From NCBI RefSeq assembly GCF_003790525.1, contig NZ_CP033635.1: a DNA stretch of 64,000 bases; one strand, given 5' to 3'. Under the pieces are notes generated by a model. That model did no database searches. It was not told the DNA's origin and was given only the letters and a program-made list of their open reading frames with translations. The stretch is from Escherichia coli. GTDB taxonomy: Bacteria > Pseudomonadota > Gammaproteobacteria > Enterobacterales > Enterobacteriaceae. This document shows positions 38,484-43,497 of the stretch, piece by piece. The first letter of the stretch is position 1. Each line of letters starts with the position of its first letter. Both the position numbers and the translations under genes were made by a program.

Positions 38484-38686
38484 AACCTCACTCCCAGCGG
38501 ACGACGGCGACGTCGGGTTGTCCCCAGTACCGACTCCGCATCATTGATCGCCCGGTTAAGCTCATCCAGAGAAGCCGCCGTATATTCAATTCTGCGACCA
38601 TCTTTCTGGACAGACACCACCCGTTTACCGGTTAATAAATCAAGGCGCGCCTGACGCAGCGCCTGCAGTTCAGCGACTGTAACCAT
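38480..38686 (-). CDS. head-tail connector protein W
   Basis: 68-aa ...LTGKRVVSVQKDGRRIEYTA..., lambda W-like. Confidence 0.85.
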   Translation of the reverse strand: MVTVAELQALRQARLDLLTGKRVVSVQKDGRRIEYTAASLDELNRAINDAESVLGTTRRRRRPLGVRL

Positions 38687-40598
38687 TCACTCCTCCGGAC
38701 AGCTTCGCTGCCAGTTCTTTAAGGGTTGGCCGGGTCGTCTCTTCTTCCCGGGATTTTGCCAGTACAGCCAGATCAAGCTGCCAGCGTTGCACGGACACAC
38801 GTAATGCCGCGTAGGCATACACCAGGCAGTCCAGCGCTTCGTTACGCCGCTTTTTGTTATCCCACAGCAGACGCATCTTTCCTTTTTCCCACTTCTCCAC
38901 AAGCTCTTCCGCGACCAGTTGCTGCGCCTCTGTCTGCGAAAAAATCTCCGGATCATCAGGAAAACGAATGGCATACGACGTGGATTCATCCGCAGGCGTG
39001 GGAGCGGCTTTCATACGGGCATAGAGAATTTCTTTTGCGGTGTCCGTGCCCACTTCACACAGATACACGCCCCGCTGATTGCGGGTTTTTGGCATGGTGA
39101 TCACCGGCTTGCCATAGACAGATGCGCCTTTTACCGGCAACACCCGGAAAACACCGTGTTTTTTTGACCTCTGATAAACGATTTCTCCATCGATCCCCCC
39201 GATGTCCCAGCAGACACGGGAAATGGTCATTTCGGTTCCGTCTGCATGGCGGTATTTTTTGTTGATCGCCGCATCCACACGTAACAGCGTCTCTTCCTCA
39301 TCGGGACGTCCCATAATGATGATTTTATCCACCAGAAAGGCTTCCTCTCCCGGAGCCCATCCCCAGACATACATCTCAAAACGGTTTCGCTGCGAGTCAA
39401 TGCCCGCCGTCAGATAAACCACCCGGGCAGGCACCGCCGCCGTGTAACGCACAACCTTATCCATCAGTACCTGGTGATCGAGTTTTTCGCCCACGGCCTC
39501 TTCCCAGGTCTCGCCCAGCGTGGTGTTCACAAAGGTTTTCAGGCCGTTGGGATCTTTCAGTGCATCCAGCCAGTCATAGACAATCTGTACCCAGGTGGTG
39601 AACGGACTGTACGCCGTCCAGATATGGAAAGTGATGGAGCGCGGCGGCGGAATTTCATTATCCGCGGCGCTGAAAAACATCAGGCCGTCACGGGTCCACA
39701 TGCCCGTGTTTTCACAGATCCACCGCCCGTTACTCTGGTCAAGCTCAGACTGATGGATCACACAGCCATGATGCTCACAAAGGTAGAAAACGCTTTCGGG
39801 GCTGTCCTTCTCCCATTTAAGGCCAAAAGGCGTGGATTCATCGCCAAATTTCAGATACTGCTCCTCCCCACAGTGCGGGCAGGGCACATAAAAACGCATG
39901 AAATGTGCCGACTCGTTAGCGGCTTTTTCGATCTGGCAGGAGCCTTTGATTTTAGGCGTCGAGCCGCGAATGGATTTTGGCCATACAGAGCCCTCAATAC
40001 GCTTATCCCCCAGCAGGGTTGGCGAGCCCTCTTTTTCAACATCCGGTTCGAACGAGGAAAGCTCGTCATAGCAGACCACGTCCACGGATTTTTCACGGTA
40101 GTTTTTTGCTGCCGCACCACCCAGGCACCAGAAGCCCACACCCGATGAAAAGCGTTTCAGCGTGAGAGTATTGTCACGATGTTTACGCCCCAGCCATGGA
40201 GAAAGGTCTTTCAGGCATGGCACATCCCGAATCGTCGCCTCCACGTGAGACTTCATAAAATCTTCAGCGGCAGAATCCGTGGGCTGAAAAAGCAGACTGT
40301 TTCGGGATTTATGCTCAATAAAATACCCGACCACCCCCAGCAACATCTTTGTATAACCAATACGGGCAGATTTAATCAGGTTAACAGTGCGAATCAGATC
40401 GTTGCCCATACAGTTCATGATGGCGATCTGGAACGGCAGCGTTTTCCATTCTCCCTCACCATATGAAGATTCTTTAGGCAGATAATAATTTTGATCAGCC
40501 CATTCAACTGGCGTCACCGGCAATGCCCTTATCAGGGGCTGTAATGCTGTTGTGACAGCACTCATCATATTATTCAGTTGTTGCTCTGATATATTCAT
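38670..40598 (-). CDS. terminase large subunit A
   Basis: MNISEQQLNNMM...; Walker and nuclease motifs, lambda A-like; start taken at 40598. Confidence 0.9.
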   Translation of the reverse strand: MNISEQQLNNMMSAVTTALQPLIRALPVTPVEWADQNYYLPKESSYGEGEWKTLPFQIAIMNCMGNDLIRTVNLIKSARIGYTKMLLGVVGYFIEHKSRNSLLFQPTDSAAEDFMKSHVEATIRDVPCLKDLSPWLGRKHRDNTLTLKRFSSGVGFWCLGGAAAKNYREKSVDVVCYDELSSFEPDVEKEGSPTLLGDKRIEGSVWPKSIRGSTPKIKGSCQIEKAANESAHFMRFYVPCPHCGEEQYLKFGDESTPFGLKWEKDSPESVFYLCEHHGCVIHQSELDQSNGRWICENTGMWTRDGLMFFSAADNEIPPPRSITFHIWTAYSPFTTWVQIVYDWLDALKDPNGLKTFVNTTLGETWEEAVGEKLDHQVLMDKVVRYTAAVPARVVYLTAGIDSQRNRFEMYVWGWAPGEEAFLVDKIIIMGRPDEEETLLRVDAAINKKYRHADGTEMTISRVCWDIGGIDGEIVYQRSKKHGVFRVLPVKGASVYGKPVITMPKTRNQRGVYLCEVGTDTAKEILYARMKAAPTPADESTSYAIRFPDDPEIFSQTEAQQLVAEELVEKWEKGKMRLLWDNKKRRNEALDCLVYAYAALRVSVQRWQLDLAVLAKSREEETTRPTLKELAAKLSGGVNGYSR

Positions 40599-41079
40599 CG
40601 AGTAAATCCGGTAATTTATCCCCTGCCCGCGCACACTGATTTGCCCCCTTCGCAATAAGGGTTTTCAGATGGTCAAGATGGCGCGGTGTTAAATCAGGAA
40701 ACTGTCGTTGCATGGATAAAGGGATGGAATCAAGCGTACTGGATAACGCCATTGCCAGCTTGCTGAGGGCAAAAATACAGAACCCGGTGTCAATAAGTTT
40801 TCCTTTTGACACCTCATTTTTTAACTGCTGTGTAACAGCCTGTTCTGCTGTCAGTTCCCATCTGGCAATAAGCAATTTCTCCTCATAGTCGTCTTCGCTA
40901 TCGCCATCAGGCACATCGTTTTTACTTCTTCTCAGATACGATATGTAAAAATCACGCCAGGCATCCAGATCCAGTTGCCCTCGCTTATTCGATATCGGGG
41001 CACCCGGCAATTTCTGCAGTCTGCGAAGCTGGCGATCGGTCAGACTCAAATGCCTGGCAACTTCAGTCTGCGTAGCCAC
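40570..41079 (-). CDS. terminase small subunit Nu1
   Basis: 169-aa; C-terminal half resembles lambda Nu1 (...LSMQRQFPDLTPRHLDHLK...LLDEYI...). Confidence 0.8.
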   Translation of the reverse strand: MATQTEVARHLSLTDRQLRRLQKLPGAPISNKRGQLDLDAWRDFYISYLRRSKNDVPDGDSEDDYEEKLLIARWELTAEQAVTQQLKNEVSKGKLIDTGFCIFALSKLAMALSSTLDSIPLSMQRQFPDLTPRHLDHLKTLIAKGANQCARAGDKLPDLLDEYIRATTE

Positions 41080-41291
41080 TGTTCACCTCGCAAAAAATCT
41101 CCCCTCATGCGTTTTAAACATGCATCTTGCGAGCAACTTTATGCAAACGCACGCATATGTCCGGTTTGTTTGTACATTTTTTGCACATGTCCGGTTCGCA
41201 GAAAGCATGTTTTTATATTTTTCATATAGTTAACTTGCAGAGAAACCGGACATGGATCCCGGAAAATTTTCATAAATAGCGAAAACGCGCG

Positions 41292-41303
41292 AGGTCGACG
41301 CCC
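41292..41303. other. cos site (cosN cohesive-end sequence)
   Basis: ccggaaaattttcataaatagcgaaaacgcgcgaggtcgacgcccc is the reverse complement of the lambda left-end sequence with few mismatches; the 12-nt cohesive end maps to 41292-41303. Confidence 0.7.
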
Positions 41304-41502
41304 CGTAACGGGTCCACATGCCGGAAAGGACCCGCAAAATGATAATAATTATCATCTACATGTCACAACGTGCATCTACGCCATCAAACCACGTCAAATA
41401 ATAAATTATGACGCAGGTATCGTATTAATTGATCTGCATCAACTTAACGTAAAAACAACTTCAGACAATACAAATCAGCGACACTGAATACGGGGCAACC
41501 TC

Positions 41503-41697
41503 ATGTCAACGAAGAACAGAACCCGCAGAACAACAACCCGCAACATCCGCTTTCCTAACCAAATGATTGAACAAATTAACATCGCTCTTGAGCAAAAAGG
41601 GTCCGGGAATTTCTCAGCCTGGGTCATTGAAGCCTGCCGTCGGAGACTAACGTCAGAAAAGAGAGCATATACATCAATCCAAAGAGATGATGAATAA
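41503..41697 (+). CDS. YlcI-like small protein (DUF3950-type) next to cos
   Basis: 64-aa MSTKNRTRRTTTRNIRFPNQMIEQINIALEQKG...; same position as ylcI next to the Nu1 homologue in DLP12. Confidence 0.5.
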   Translation: MSTKNRTRRTTTRNIRFPNQMIEQINIALEQKGSGNFSAWVIEACRRRLTSEKRAYTSIQRDDE

Positions 41698-42057
41698 ACA
41701 TCCCGGTTTCTTCCACCATCGCACCGGAAAAGCGACTATGAGGGTAACCCTGCGTCTGTCAGCACAGTAAAACCCGGTGTGCATCGTTTTTGATTATTCC
41801 CGCACACTCGCGCAGAGGAGTTCCCCGTCGGGCTACGGTCATGGTTAATGCGGGAATACGGCGACGATGCAGCGCAGCTAAAAGGGTAATGGACGGATAG
41901 ACCGGTTTATTTCATTCTACAGGATTCTGAGTGTCCCCAACTCCCTCCAATCGTCTGAGCGCCACCTGTGTAGTTTTAATTTTCATCAATCCATTTAACT
42001 ATCGTTTAATTGTTGTCACATAGGATTCTGCCGTTTTTAACAATGCAGGATAATAAG

Positions 42058-42351
42058 ATGAAAAAAATGTTGTTTTCTGCCGCTCTGGCAATGCTTATTA
42101 CAGGATGTGCTCAACAGACGTTTACTGTTGGAAACAAACCTACAGCCGTAACACCAAAGGAAACCATCACCCATCATTTCTTCGTTTCGGGAATTGGGCA
42201 GAAGAAAACTGTCGATGCAGCAAAAATTTGTGGTGGTGCAGAAAATGTGGTTAAAACAGAAACCCAGCAAACATTCGTAAATGGATTGCTCGGTTTCATC
42301 ACTTTTGGCATTTATACTCCGCTGGAAGCGCGGGTGTATTGCTCAAAATAA
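42058..42351 (+). CDS. bor: Bor lipoprotein (serum resistance)
   Basis: MKKMLFSAALAMLITGCAQQT... lipobox; lambda Bor-like; preceded by AGGA. Confidence 0.85.
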   Translation: MKKMLFSAALAMLITGCAQQTFTVGNKPTAVTPKETITHHFFVSGIGQKKTVDAAKICGGAENVVKTETQQTFVNGLLGFITFGIYTPLEARVYCSK

Positions 42352-42382
42352 TTGCATGAGTTGCCCATTGATATGGGCAGCT

Positions 42383-42859
42383 CTATCTGCACTGCTCATT
42401 AATATACTTCTGGGTTCCTTCCAGTTGCTTCTGCATCGTCATCAACCGTTCTCTGAGGGTGAAATAATCCCGTTCAGCGGTGTCTGCCAGTCGGGGGCTG
42501 GTTGCATTATCCACGCCGGAGGCGGTGGTGGCTTCACGCACTGACTGACAGACTGCTTTGATGTGCAACCGACGACGACCTGCGGCAACATCATCACGCA
42601 GAACATCATTTTCAGCTTTCGCATCAGCTAACTCCTTCGTGTATTTTGCATCGAGCGCAGCAACATCACGCTGACGCTGCTGCATGTCAGCGATGGTGGC
42701 GATCGCCTGCTTCAGCTCACTGACTTTTTTATCGCGCTGCTCTTTGTAAGTGATGGCGTTATCGCGGTAATGATTGACCGCCCACGACAGGCAGACGATG
42801 ATGCAGATAACCAGAGCATAAATAATCGCGGCGACTCTGCTCACTGATCTATTCCCCAA
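42383..42859 (-). CDS. i-spanin Rz
   Basis: 158-aa, N-terminal TM plus coiled coil, lambda Rz-like. Confidence 0.85.
42442..42624 (-). CDS. o-spanin Rz1, embedded in Rz in the +1 frame
   Basis: 60-aa lipoprotein [23 protein letters not shown] with proline-rich PPPPPAW. Confidence 0.75.
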
Positions 42860-43374
42860 CAGGCTAATGCGCTTTCCTGGTCACGACGAATAACCTGTCC
42901 GTAGCAGTTATTTGAACGTGTGCGGCAATCACGCCCACCGTCCTTAATCCACCAGCGAATCGACTCACAGGCACCTTTACGATCACCGGCATTAAGCCGC
43001 TTATAAAACGTCGACGGGAAACACTTACCGGGGCCAATGTTATAGGGACAGAATGACGCTATACCCGCTTTCTGTGGTTCGGTCAGTGGTACTTTAATAT
43101 TGCGCTCCACCCATGCCAGCGCCTTATCACGCTCAATGGCATTAACCTGAGCGCATTTTTCCTTCGACAGCTTCATTCCCGGTATGACGGGCTTACCATC
43201 CACCATTGTGGCACCACGACAGATGGTCCATATACCGGAACCATCGCGGTATGCCGTTGTGTGGTTACCTTCTTTTTCATCCAGAAACTGGTCGAGAATA
43301 TCAGGCGCAGGCGCACCGACGGCAATCAGTGCCAGAACGGCAGCCGACAGGCCGTATCTGATTTTTGCGTTCAT
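42841..43374 (-). CDS. SAR endolysin (phage lysozyme)
   Basis: 177-aa; N-terminal hydrophobic SAR-like segment; E...D...T catalytic spacing ([22 protein letters not shown]). Confidence 0.85.
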
Positions 43375-43497
43375 GTATATTTATCAGGATCTAAAGGTTT
43401 ATAACCCTGGATATATCAGGTATATAATCCAGTACCAGCATGTCTCATAAACATACCCGTTCAGGAAAACCAAACGACAACAGATGAGGCTTCAGAA

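What the first reader, a model, noticed from the sequence alone, without database searches (positions are those of the whole stretch)
41698..42057. 360-bp non-coding stretch between the YlcI-like gene and bor
No ORF of 60 aa or more on either strand in a region flanked by small accessory genes. It could hold a promoter for bor, a small RNA or a regulatory element. GC-rich hairpin-capable segments are visible (for example gcgggaatacggcgacgatgcagcgcagc).
Basis: inference. Interest (0 to 1): 0.25.

Follow-up and report, generated by a model that had tools for sequence, protein, structure and literature searches.

The report
Conserved phage hairpin plus iss promoter
The gene-free 360 bases upstream of the serum-resistance gene bor/iss hold two things: that gene's promoter region, already known from relatives, and an unannotated 175-base element shared by phage lambda, Shiga-toxin phages and most E. 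coli genomes, which folds into a conserved hairpin of unknown function.

Summary
In detail: 41698-42057 has no ORF of 60 aa or more lying inside it and is non-coding.

It has two unrelated parts.

(A) 41702-41875 is a conserved non-coding element.
- It occurs in lambda, DLP12, Stx phages, more than 100 IMG/VR prophage contigs and 3687 of 5426 complete E. coli genomes. It is unannotated and absent from Rfam.
- It is not specific to bor: 81 of 133 copies have no bor next to it.
- It marks the far edge of a cargo slot after the spanin gene Rz. In empty slots it starts about 16 nt after the Rz stop.
- Three covarying pairs, and wobble changes at 8 stem positions against 1, favour the - strand, which is the late-operon sense.
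- Its function is unknown. My best guess is a cis-acting processing or stability hairpin in late mRNA.

(B) 41876-42057 is the upstream region specific to bor/iss.
- The last ~70 nt are homologous to the PhoP-dependent borD promoter and leader.
- The PhoP box is degenerate here (9 of 12 bases).

No small RNA was found. The published sRNA HnrS lies next to the element in O157 prophages, does not overlap it, and is absent from this window.

Interest is modest: an ordinary promoter plus a widespread structured element that has not been described.

The parts
41503..41697 (+). ylcI-like gene (DUF3950), the left flank. One of several alternative left neighbours of the element.
   Evidence: Pfam PF13132, E = 2e-20. 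PGAP name YlcI/YnfO in near-identical genomes.
41702..41875 (-). Conserved non-coding element of lambdoid prophages. It sits at the distal boundary of the cargo slot after Rz.
   Evidence: Present in lambda, DLP12, Stx phages and IMG/VR contigs. Found in 3687 of 5426 complete E. coli genomes with nothing annotated under it. Both of its flanks vary between phages.
41780..41871 (-). Long hairpin. The outer stem pairs 41780-41787 with 41864-41871. The inner stem pairs 41795-41805 with 41848-41858. A conserved internal loop separates them and the apical region is variable.
   Evidence: z = -3.25. 98.2% of cells are paired on the - strand. Covarying pairs run C-G / U.G / U-A and C-G / U.G / G-C. 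On the + strand 92.1% of cells are paired, against 98.1% on the - strand for the same set. Covariance model R1 finds one copy in the window at 118.7 bits.
41702..41728 (.). Small hairpin (CCCGGT...ACCGGA) with the invariant loop motif GTTTCTTCC (41706-41714).
   Evidence: One pair covaries: G-C in 20 sequences and U-A in 26. The strand cannot be decided from wobble pairs. On its own the hairpin is not unusually stable (z about -1.1 to -1.5).
41729..41779 (.). Variable linker. It holds different short hairpins in different phage types and ends in the invariant ACCCGGTGTG.
   Evidence: Alignments A2 and A3.
41876..41989 (+). Spacer found only in the iss type. It is absent from lambda, DLP12 and Stx bor loci, and includes an indel-prone C-rich tract.
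   Evidence: Alignment A1. ColV plasmids share it at about 81% identity. The apparent internal duplication with the promoter is not significant (68 of 1000 shuffles).
41992..42008 (+). Degenerate PhoP-box homologue, CATTTAactatCGTTTA.
   Evidence: It aligns with the perfect box TGTTTAgggttTGTTTA of lambda and DLP12. It has 3 mismatches to the consensus and is therefore not among the matches with 2 or fewer mismatches.
42021..42026 (+). Candidate -10 hexamer TAGGAT, 12 nt after the box. It is the homologue of TACGAT in lambda and DLP12.
   Evidence: Lies in the conserved block CACATA(G/C)GATTCTGC. The assignment as -10 is an inference; no transcription start data are available.
42058..42351 (+). 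bor/iss lipoprotein gene, the right flank.
   Evidence: Pfam PF06291, E = 6e-31. PGAP name iss.

Best explanation
The stretch is a composite of two non-coding parts.

The left half (41702-41875) is a conserved island of lambdoid late regions. In its simplest arrangement it follows the stop codon of the spanin gene Rz by about 16 nt. Accessory 'moron' genes have been inserted between Rz and the island: bor/iss here; Rha, T5orf172, DUF4406 and others elsewhere. Other accessory genes sit on its far side: ylcI here, ybcV in lambda, hnrS in O157 prophages. The late operon runs on the - strand of the window and transcribes the island. Its core then forms a 92-nt two-stem hairpin with a conserved internal loop.

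I infer that this hairpin acts in cis on the late polycistronic mRNA, or on - strand cargo transcripts, as a processing or stability signal. Candidates are a double-strand-specific nuclease site or a 3'-protective hairpin. It would separate the fate of the lysis-plus-cargo segment from that of the packaging and head segment.

The right half (41876-42057) belongs to the bor/iss moron. It is an iss-type spacer followed by the homologue of the activator-dependent borD promoter (box remnant, 12-nt spacing, TAGGAT) and a leader of about 25 nt with its Shine-Dalgarno sequence.

Shown: the anatomy, the conservation, the slot architecture, the strand-asymmetric pairing and the promoter homology. Inferred: the nuclease or stability role, the transcription start, and which regulator acts on this degenerate box. 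The confidence given (0.5) is for the whole composite account; the anatomy alone I hold at about 0.85 and the specific processing/stability role of the hairpin at about 0.3.
For: Conservation and context
- Searches show the spread of the element. 81 of 133 copies have no bor next to them.
- Rz lies on the opposite strand 100-3200 nt to the right in 118 of 133 copies. Empty slots are seen.
- The cargo families differ between loci.

Hairpin
- z = -3.25. Paired cells: 98.1-98.2% on the - strand against 92.1% on the + strand.
- Three covarying pairs, two of them passing through G.U intermediates that exist only on the - strand.
- Eight stem positions vary through G.U on the - strand, against one on the + strand.
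- Unpaired columns show no transition bias (C/T 18 against A/G 15).
- A 9-nt deletion in the apical region leaves both stems intact.

Transcription in the late direction
- Established lambda biology: the pR' late transcript runs S-R-Rz across cos into Nu1-A.
- K-12 data show a bicyclomycin-sensitive 3' end on that strand about 170 nt beyond the DLP12 copy (PMC7815308 supplement).

Promoter
- Alignment. Perfect PhoP box in DLP12. borD is PhoP-regulated (PMC5740661). borD.5UTR is listed as a node in an Hfq RIL-seq-derived table (PMC8175672 supplement).
Against: - There is no direct evidence for cleavage, for a stability effect, or for any phenotype.
- The covariation rests on a few events among closely related, recombining phages. 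The tool's own caveat is that related sequences can beat every shuffle without any structure.
- The effective number of sequences in the covariance model is only 1.25.
- G.T pairs are also tolerated in single-stranded DNA, so a DNA-level role is not excluded.
- The whole 188-nt region is not unusually stable.
- The invariant loop GTTTCTTCC and the invariant ACCCGGTGTG are not explained by this model.
- For the promoter, the PhoP box has 3 mismatches, a level common by chance. The consensus scan finds no + strand promoter. I did not find a mapped transcription start for iss.
Confidence: 0.5

Rival explanations
1. The element has no RNA function. It is a homology 'linker' that homologous recombination keeps uniform, because it flanks a hot spot where lambdoid phages exchange cargo modules.
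For: Both flanks are mosaic junctions with many alternative neighbours. Mixed types occur, for example TCCGG with CAGGA, as expected from recombination inside the element. The element is restricted to Escherichia and Shigella phages.
Against: A neutral linker would not keep 98% of stem cells paired. It would not channel its substitutions into G.U on one strand (8 against 1) while unpaired columns show none of that asymmetry. It would not keep both stems across a 9-nt apical deletion. The two roles do not exclude each other.
Confidence: 0.2
2. The element works on the + strand. It would be the 3' UTR, a terminator or insulator, or a 3'-UTR-derived small RNA of the accessory genes to its left (ylcI, ybcV). 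It would stop them reading into bor and present the invariant loop UUUCUUCC as a pairing seed.
For: The genes to its left are on the + strand and end just before it. The + strand carries CGUUUUUGAUUAUU after an 8-bp CGCACCGG/CCGGUGUG pairing in the window type (read from the sequence). The loop motif GTTTCTTCC is invariant. The neighbouring position in O157 prophages holds a true Hfq sRNA, HnrS, on this strand.
Against: No terminator-like site is called there. The 8-bp pairing is broken in the commonest variant (CACAGG). The long hairpin has C.A mismatches on this strand (92.1% paired). Neither the Hfq-CRAC peak table for O157 (after correcting a coordinate offset of about 140 nt) nor the K-12 RIL-seq-derived table lists the element. 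The similarity to HnrS is at chance level. No promoter is conserved upstream, because the upstream sequence differs between phage types.
Confidence: 0.12
3. The element is a transcription terminator for unmodified RNA polymerase in the late direction. It would keep transcripts of - strand cargo genes out of the packaging genes in a lysogen.
For: Many cargo genes (Rha, T5orf172, DUF4406) are on the - strand, directly upstream of it in that direction. In K-12 a Rho-dependent (bicyclomycin-sensitive) 3' end lies about 170 nt beyond the element on that strand.
Against: The U-run after the hairpin starts 9 nt from the stem and is not conserved (UUUUU, UUUAG, GUUAC, UUAUU in different types). No terminator-like site is called. 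The downstream RNA is not C-rich and G-poor as a rut site would be (read from the sequence). The Term-seq table lists no 3' end inside the DLP12 copy.
Confidence: 0.1
4. The region encodes a small protein. Some phage records annotate an 81-aa ORF on the - strand or 36-37-aa ORFs on the + strand.
For: Automated annotations exist in Stx phage VT2phi_272 and in PhiR68_2. An ATG is invariant within ACGATGCAC.
Against: 1-nt indels between close relatives shift every frame. From the same ATG the ORF is 18, 27, 36 or 82 codons long in different types, with unrelated sequence after MHTGF. The variable sites are not concentrated at third codon positions (read from alignment A3). PGAP annotates nothing there.
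Confidence: 0.03

Closest known systems
borD (DLP12) and lambda bor promoter, a member of the PhoP/PhoQ Mg2+ regulon
   Same: It sits at the same position upstream of the same gene family. It shares the blocks GTTTAATT and CACATA(G/C)GATTCTGC and the 12-nt spacing from the box to a TA..AT hexamer.
   Different: The PhoP box is degenerate here (CATTTA-N5-CGTTTA, 9 of 12, against a perfect box in DLP12). The iss type also carries about 110 nt of extra spacer between the promoter and the conserved element.
RNase III processing hairpins of phage polycistronic mRNAs (T7 R1.1-type sites; lambda sib and N-leader sites)
   Same: It is a long two-stem hairpin with an internal loop, placed between gene blocks of a long phage transcript and just after the last gene of a cassette. 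This comparison rests on recalled knowledge of those sites.
   Different: Cleavage has not been shown. There is no sequence similarity and no Rfam family. The apical region is large (43 nt) and variable. Its position is the end of the lysis cassette, where I know of no described site.
HnrS (EcOnc10/11/12), the prophage sRNA that represses hha (bioRxiv 10.1101/2025.11.27.690950)
   Same: It lies in the same neighbourhood, between Rz and the terminase genes, on the strand opposite to the late genes. In Sakai Sp9 and Sp10 it ends about 12 nt from the element.
   Different: It is a separate 66-nt gene with its own promoter-like site and a canonical terminator. It is absent from this window and from the other loci examined. 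Its sequence similarity to the element is at chance level.
Moron boundaries of lambdoid phages (Juhala et al. 2000)
   Same: The element marks a fixed edge of a slot that accepts autonomous accessory genes, the classic moron bor among them.
   Different: Morons are defined by their own promoter and terminator. This is a conserved structured island that is not part of any one moron, and cargo sits on both of its sides.

Membership tests
PhoP-activated borD-type promoter | PhoP box (T/G)GTTTA-N5-(T/G)GTTTA | tested here: not met
   The window site CATTTAactatCGTTTA (41992-42008) has 3 mismatches and is not among the matches with 2 or fewer. DLP12 has a perfect box.
PhoP-activated borD-type promoter | Positional homology to the borD upstream region, with the box about 12 nt from a -10-like hexamer | tested here: met
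   Alignment A1 columns 347-420. Spacing is 12 nt to TAGGAT in the window and to TACGAT in DLP12.
PhoP-activated borD-type promoter | PhoP/PhoQ-dependent transcription | not testable with these tools
   Shown for borD in K-12 (PMC5740661). Unknown for this iss-type allele.
Any Rfam RNA family | Covariance-model match | tested here: not met
   In 40500-43500 the only matches are three chance-level ones outside the element, at E = 2.2-9.5. The related locus L007 gives nothing at E <= 1.
HnrS sRNA | Sequence homology to the 66-nt HnrS, including the CUUCU seed and the terminator | tested here: not met
   blastn-short finds HnrS only in the Sakai loci. Local alignment to the element is no better than shuffles (859/2000, 282/2000 and 1743/2000).
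Intrinsic (Rho-independent) terminator | GC-rich stem followed directly by a U-tract, conserved among copies | tested here: not met
   No site is called in the element on either strand. The U-run is 9 nt from the stem on the - strand and is not conserved.
RNase III-type processing hairpin | About two turns of near-continuous double-stranded RNA, often with an internal loop | tested here: inconclusive
   Stems of 8 bp and 11 bp are separated by a 5 x 7 nt internal loop. The shape is compatible but not diagnostic.
RNase III-type processing hairpin | rnc-dependent cleavage in vivo or in vitro | not testable with these tools
   The supplement of the K-12 RNase III cleavage map is not held, and the main text does not mention the locus.
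Protein-coding gene | A conserved reading frame | tested here: not met
   Frame-shifting indels separate close relatives, and ORF lengths differ from the same ATG.
Moron (bor/iss unit) | An accessory gene with its own promoter, on the strand opposite to the late operon | tested here: met
   bor is on + while Rz, R, Nu1 and A are on -. The promoter has a homologue. In K-12 the borD transcript has its own 3' end at 578444.

The most novel reading that the evidence does not exclude
The 175-nt island is an undescribed functional RNA of lambda-like phages, read in the late-operon sense. It would be a structured signal placed right after the lysis cassette. It could control how the late transcript is cut or stabilised, or recruit a host or phage factor through its conserved internal loop and the invariant GGAAGAAAC loop. 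In doing so it would define the site where morons such as bor/iss, Rha-type regulators and the sRNA gene hnrS can be inserted without harm. It would be a new cis-regulatory element in lambda itself.
Probability: 0.3. Interest if true: 0.55.

Novelty: new member of a known kind. Interest (0 to 1): 0.35.

Why it matters
bor/iss is a serum-resistance marker of extraintestinal and avian pathogenic E. coli. Its control region here has lost the clean PhoP box of the lambda/DLP12 allele, so the iss allele may be regulated differently.

The more general point is the element. A structured non-coding sequence present in about two thirds of complete E. coli genomes, and in phage lambda itself, appears to be unannotated. 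It sits exactly at the place where lambdoid phages load accessory and virulence cargo. If it acts on late mRNA, it adds a control point to one of the best-studied phages. It would also explain why cargo accumulates at this junction. If it is only a recombination linker, it is still a useful landmark for locating cargo slots in prophages.

Tried and rejected
1. Mapping the Hfq-CRAC peaks EcOnc10/11/12 onto the element. The raw coordinates seemed to hit its U-rich stretch. Calibrating on AgvB showed that the paper's coordinates are about 140 nt lower than those of NC_002695.2. The peaks are HnrS, which lies next to the element and does not overlap it.

2. Homology between the HnrS seed and the loop of the small hairpin. 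It is at chance level.

3. A tandem duplication of the promoter inside 41878-42057 (GGTTTATTTCATTCTACAGGATTCTG against CGTTTAATTGTTGTCACATAGGATTCTG). Not significant: 68 of 1000 shuffles score as high.

4. An intrinsic terminator on either strand. Not called and not conserved.

5. Small-protein readings. Rejected because of frame-shifting indels.

6. The - strand promoter-like site at 41762-41735. It lies in the variable linker, and the number of such sites is at the shuffle expectation (3 found, 2.0 expected).

7. A second copy, or related hairpins, elsewhere in the window. None.

8. The element outside Escherichia. An exact-pattern scan of 100,044 species genomes found it only in Escherichia, plus a few odd contigs from unrelated taxa and MAGs that I take to be contamination.

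9. Experimental support in K-12 data sets. The Term-seq, RIL-seq-derived and RNase III sources I could read contain nothing on the element itself.

10. Mutational strand bias as the cause of the wobble asymmetry. Not supported: unpaired columns show C/T 18 against A/G 15.

Full report
**Setting**

The window carries a lambdoid prophage whose late genes run on the - strand:
- endolysin R at 42841-43374
- spanin Rz at 42383-42859
- Nu1 at 40570-41079
- terminase A at 38670-40655

Two accessory genes lie on the + strand, and the finding is the 360 bases between them:
- a ylcI-like gene at 41503-41697 (DUF3950, E = 2e-20)
- bor/iss at 42058-42351 (Bor family, E = 6e-31)

PGAP calls the second gene iss in near-identical genomes.

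**Observation**

Only ORFs of 23-36 aa lie inside 41698-42057. At the right end, the TTG-extended frame of bor (from 42010) and a 77-aa ORF antisense to bor (from 42037) overlap it slightly. The stretch is therefore ORF-free as described.

It is non-coding by comparison as well. Close relatives differ by single-base indels and by a 9-nt deletion inside the best-conserved part.

Rfam has nothing for it. In 40500-43500 the only matches are three chance-level ones outside the element.

**The stretch is two things**

I aligned the window with lambda imm21, DLP12 of K-12, an Stx2 phage, a ColV-type plasmid and a close relative.
- A distal block, about 41702-41875, is shared by all of them. The plasmid has only its right two thirds.
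- A proximal block is specific to the bor/iss gene.

**The distal element is not about bor**

An exact-pattern scan of viral contigs returned 120 loci. Among 133 copies, 81 have no bor within 420 nt on the bor side.

Orientation is always the same. In 118 of 133 copies the spanin gene Rz lies on the opposite strand, 100-3200 nt to the right.

What lies between the element and Rz varies:
- Bor
- a Rha-family regulator
- a T5orf172/MUG113 protein
- a DUF4406 protein
- a 79-aa protein with no family

In three contigs, and in Sakai prophages Sp9 and Sp10, the slot is empty. There the element begins about 16 nt after the Rz stop codon.

The left neighbour also varies:
- ylcI in this window
- a ybcV-like gene in lambda and DLP12
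- the small terminase gene in Stx2 phages
- a small gene plus the sRNA gene hnrS in Sakai

So the element is a conserved island with cargo on both sides. It sits at the junction between the lysis and packaging modules.

By megablast it occurs in 3687 of 5426 complete E. coli genomes, in up to 7 places per genome, usually with nothing annotated under it. An exact-pattern scan of one genome for each of 100,044 species found it only in Escherichia, plus a few odd contigs from unrelated taxa and MAGs that I take to be contamination.

**Anatomy of the element**

The core is a 92-nt hairpin at 41780-41871.
- The outer stem pairs 41780-41787 with 41864-41871.
- The inner stem pairs 41795-41805 with 41848-41858.
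- A well-conserved internal loop separates them: CGCCG and AUCAAAA on the - strand.
- The apical region of 43 nt is variable.

On its own the hairpin is more stable than shuffled sequence. In the window z = -3.25 on the - strand and -2.44 on the + strand; the lambda copy gives z = -3.6. The whole 188 nt is not unusually stable.

To the left come three further parts:
- an invariant ACCCGGTGTG
- a linker that differs between phage types
- a small hairpin at 41702-41728, whose loop GTTTCTTCC is invariant

**Evidence that the pairing is selected, and on which strand**

Among 52 distinct copies, 92.1% of stem cells pair when read on the + strand and 98.1% when read on the - strand.

I then took 38 distinct hairpins, including more divergent Stx-phage and Sakai copies. 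On the - strand 98.2% of cells pair.

Three pairs covary:
- In the outer stem: C-G in this window's type, U.G in the commonest type, U-A in the Sp10 type.
- In the inner stem: C-G, U.G, and G-C in the lambda type.
- In the small hairpin: G-C in 20 sequences and U-A in 26.

The two intermediates in the long hairpin are standard wobble pairs only on the - strand.

Eight stem positions vary by a transition that gives G.U on the - strand. Only one, a terminal pair, varies the other way.

Unpaired columns show no comparable asymmetry: 18 C/T against 15 A/G polymorphic columns. A strand-biased mutation process is therefore an unlikely cause.

A 9-nt deletion in the apical region leaves both stems intact. 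The plasmid-borne copy, which lies outside any late operon, carries a bulge and a mismatch.

These points favour a structure read in the sense of the late operon. The caveats are real:
- The sequences are close relatives that recombine.
- The covarying events are few.
- The effective sequence number of the covariance model is 1.25.
- G.T pairs are also tolerated in single-stranded DNA.

**What the element is not**

- It is not an intrinsic terminator. No site is called. The U-run that follows the hairpin on the - strand starts 9 nt from the stem and is not conserved.
- It is not a protein-coding gene. Frames shift between relatives.
- It is not repeated elsewhere in the window.
- It is not the sRNA HnrS. 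At first the Hfq-binding peaks EcOnc10/11/12 of Tree et al. 2014 (PMC4104026, Table S2) seemed to fall on it. Calibrating on AgvB showed that the paper's coordinates are about 140 nt lower than those of NC_002695.2. The peaks correspond to a 66-nt gene with a promoter-like site and a canonical terminator, and that gene ends about 12 nt to the left of the element. It was named HnrS in a 2025 preprint, which reports that it represses hha. HnrS is absent from this window, and its resemblance to the invariant loop is at chance level.

**Most likely role of the element**

From established lambda biology, the pR' late transcript reads S-R-Rz and continues across cos into Nu1-A. The hairpin is therefore made in every late transcript, directly after the lysis cassette and its cargo.

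Its shape is two stems around a conserved internal loop. That is the shape of the double-strand-specific processing sites and protective 3' hairpins known from T7 and from lambda sib and the N leader. This comparison comes from memory and is not a test.

I therefore propose a cis-acting processing or stability signal that partitions the late mRNA. My confidence in that specific role is about 0.3.

Rival readings are:
- a recombination linker kept uniform by module exchange
- a 3' UTR, insulator or sRNA role on the + strand for the genes to the left
- a terminator for cargo transcripts in lysogens

K-12 data give only weak context. A bicyclomycin-sensitive 3' end lies about 170 nt beyond the DLP12 copy in the late direction, and no 3' end is listed inside it.

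**The proximal part**

41876-41989 is a spacer found in the iss type (this window, its close relatives and ColV plasmids). It is absent from lambda, DLP12 and Stx bor loci and contains an indel-prone C-rich tract.

The last ~70 nt align with the upstream region of lambda bor and of borD.
- In DLP12 that region has a perfect PhoP box, TGTTTAgggttTGTTTA. It lies 12 nt from TACGAT.
- borD is a PhoP-regulon gene (PMC5740661).
- The window has CATTTAactatCGTTTA (41992-42008), then 12 nt, then TAGGAT (42021-42026).
- That is 3 mismatches in the box, a level common by chance.
- No consensus sigma-70 promoter is found on the + strand. This fits an activator-dependent promoter but does not prove one.
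- A start near 42033 would give a leader of about 25 nt, with AGGA 7 nt before the ATG at 42058. This is inference.

**Verdict**

'Small RNA' is not supported. 'Regulatory element' points to something real, but it differs from what was imagined: a widespread, unannotated structured island of lambdoid late regions. It is independent of bor and is probably read on the opposite strand.

The promoter part is already known biology. The hairpin element appears undescribed: it is not in Rfam, not annotated, and I found no paper on it. Its function remains to be shown.

Noticed in passing
window 41338-41368: A near-perfect Fur-box-like palindrome (aTGATAATAATTATCATCt) lies between the cos region and ylcI. 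A promoter-like site on the - strand overlaps it (GTGACA-16-TATCAT, 10 of 12). The weak Rfam PrrF hit at 41238-41366 comes from this Fur-box/promoter-like part.
   Followed up: no
window about 41283-41296: A cosN-like sequence (GGGGCGTCGACCT when read on the - strand) lies just upstream of Nu1 in the late direction. The prophage therefore has a lambda-type cos about 400 nt from the element.
   Followed up: no
L132 6446-6512 (-) and L133 2148-2214 (-), Sakai Sp10 and Sp9: The sRNA gene hnrS (EcOnc11/12) sits directly beside the conserved element. The coordinates in Tree et al. 2014 are about 140 nt lower than in NC_002695.2, which can mislead any mapping of their peaks onto the current record.
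   Followed up: yes
L007 about 2235-2377 (-) and the same block in L029, L050, L012: Copies without bor share a second conserved non-coding block to the right of the element (GATGTGTCAGGCTTGAATACCTTTATCC...). It has two similar short hairpins and a GCC...GGCTTT(T)GT terminator-like end on the + strand. Rfam has nothing for it, and its folding z-score is only -1.3.
   Followed up: partly
window about 42455-42517 (+), antisense to Rz: In K-12 the borD transcript has a strong Term-seq 3' end 156 nt past the stop codon, inside rzpD/rzoD on the antisense strand (578444). The homologous sequence is present here. The bor/iss mRNA therefore probably overlaps the end of Rz/Rz1 in antisense.
   Followed up: partly
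window 42060-42135 (-): A weak Rfam hit (ES205, E = 2.2) is caused by a hairpin plus a U-run antisense to the bor signal-peptide codons (AAAAAAATG). It is probably chance.
   Followed up: no
window 42043 versus 42058: An upstream in-frame ATG at 42043 would give MQDNKMKKML..., 102 aa; this looks like the start used where relatives are annotated as Iss. It has no Shine-Dalgarno sequence. The ATG at 42058 (MKKML..., 97 aa, as in Bor) has AGGA 7 nt upstream and starts the lipoprotein signal peptide.
   Followed up: partly
L005 1501-1598 (ColV-type plasmid): The plasmid-borne iss keeps the long hairpin but lacks the left third of the element. Its hairpin carries a bulged C and a mismatch. This fits relaxed constraint once the sequence is outside a phage late operon.
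   Followed up: partly
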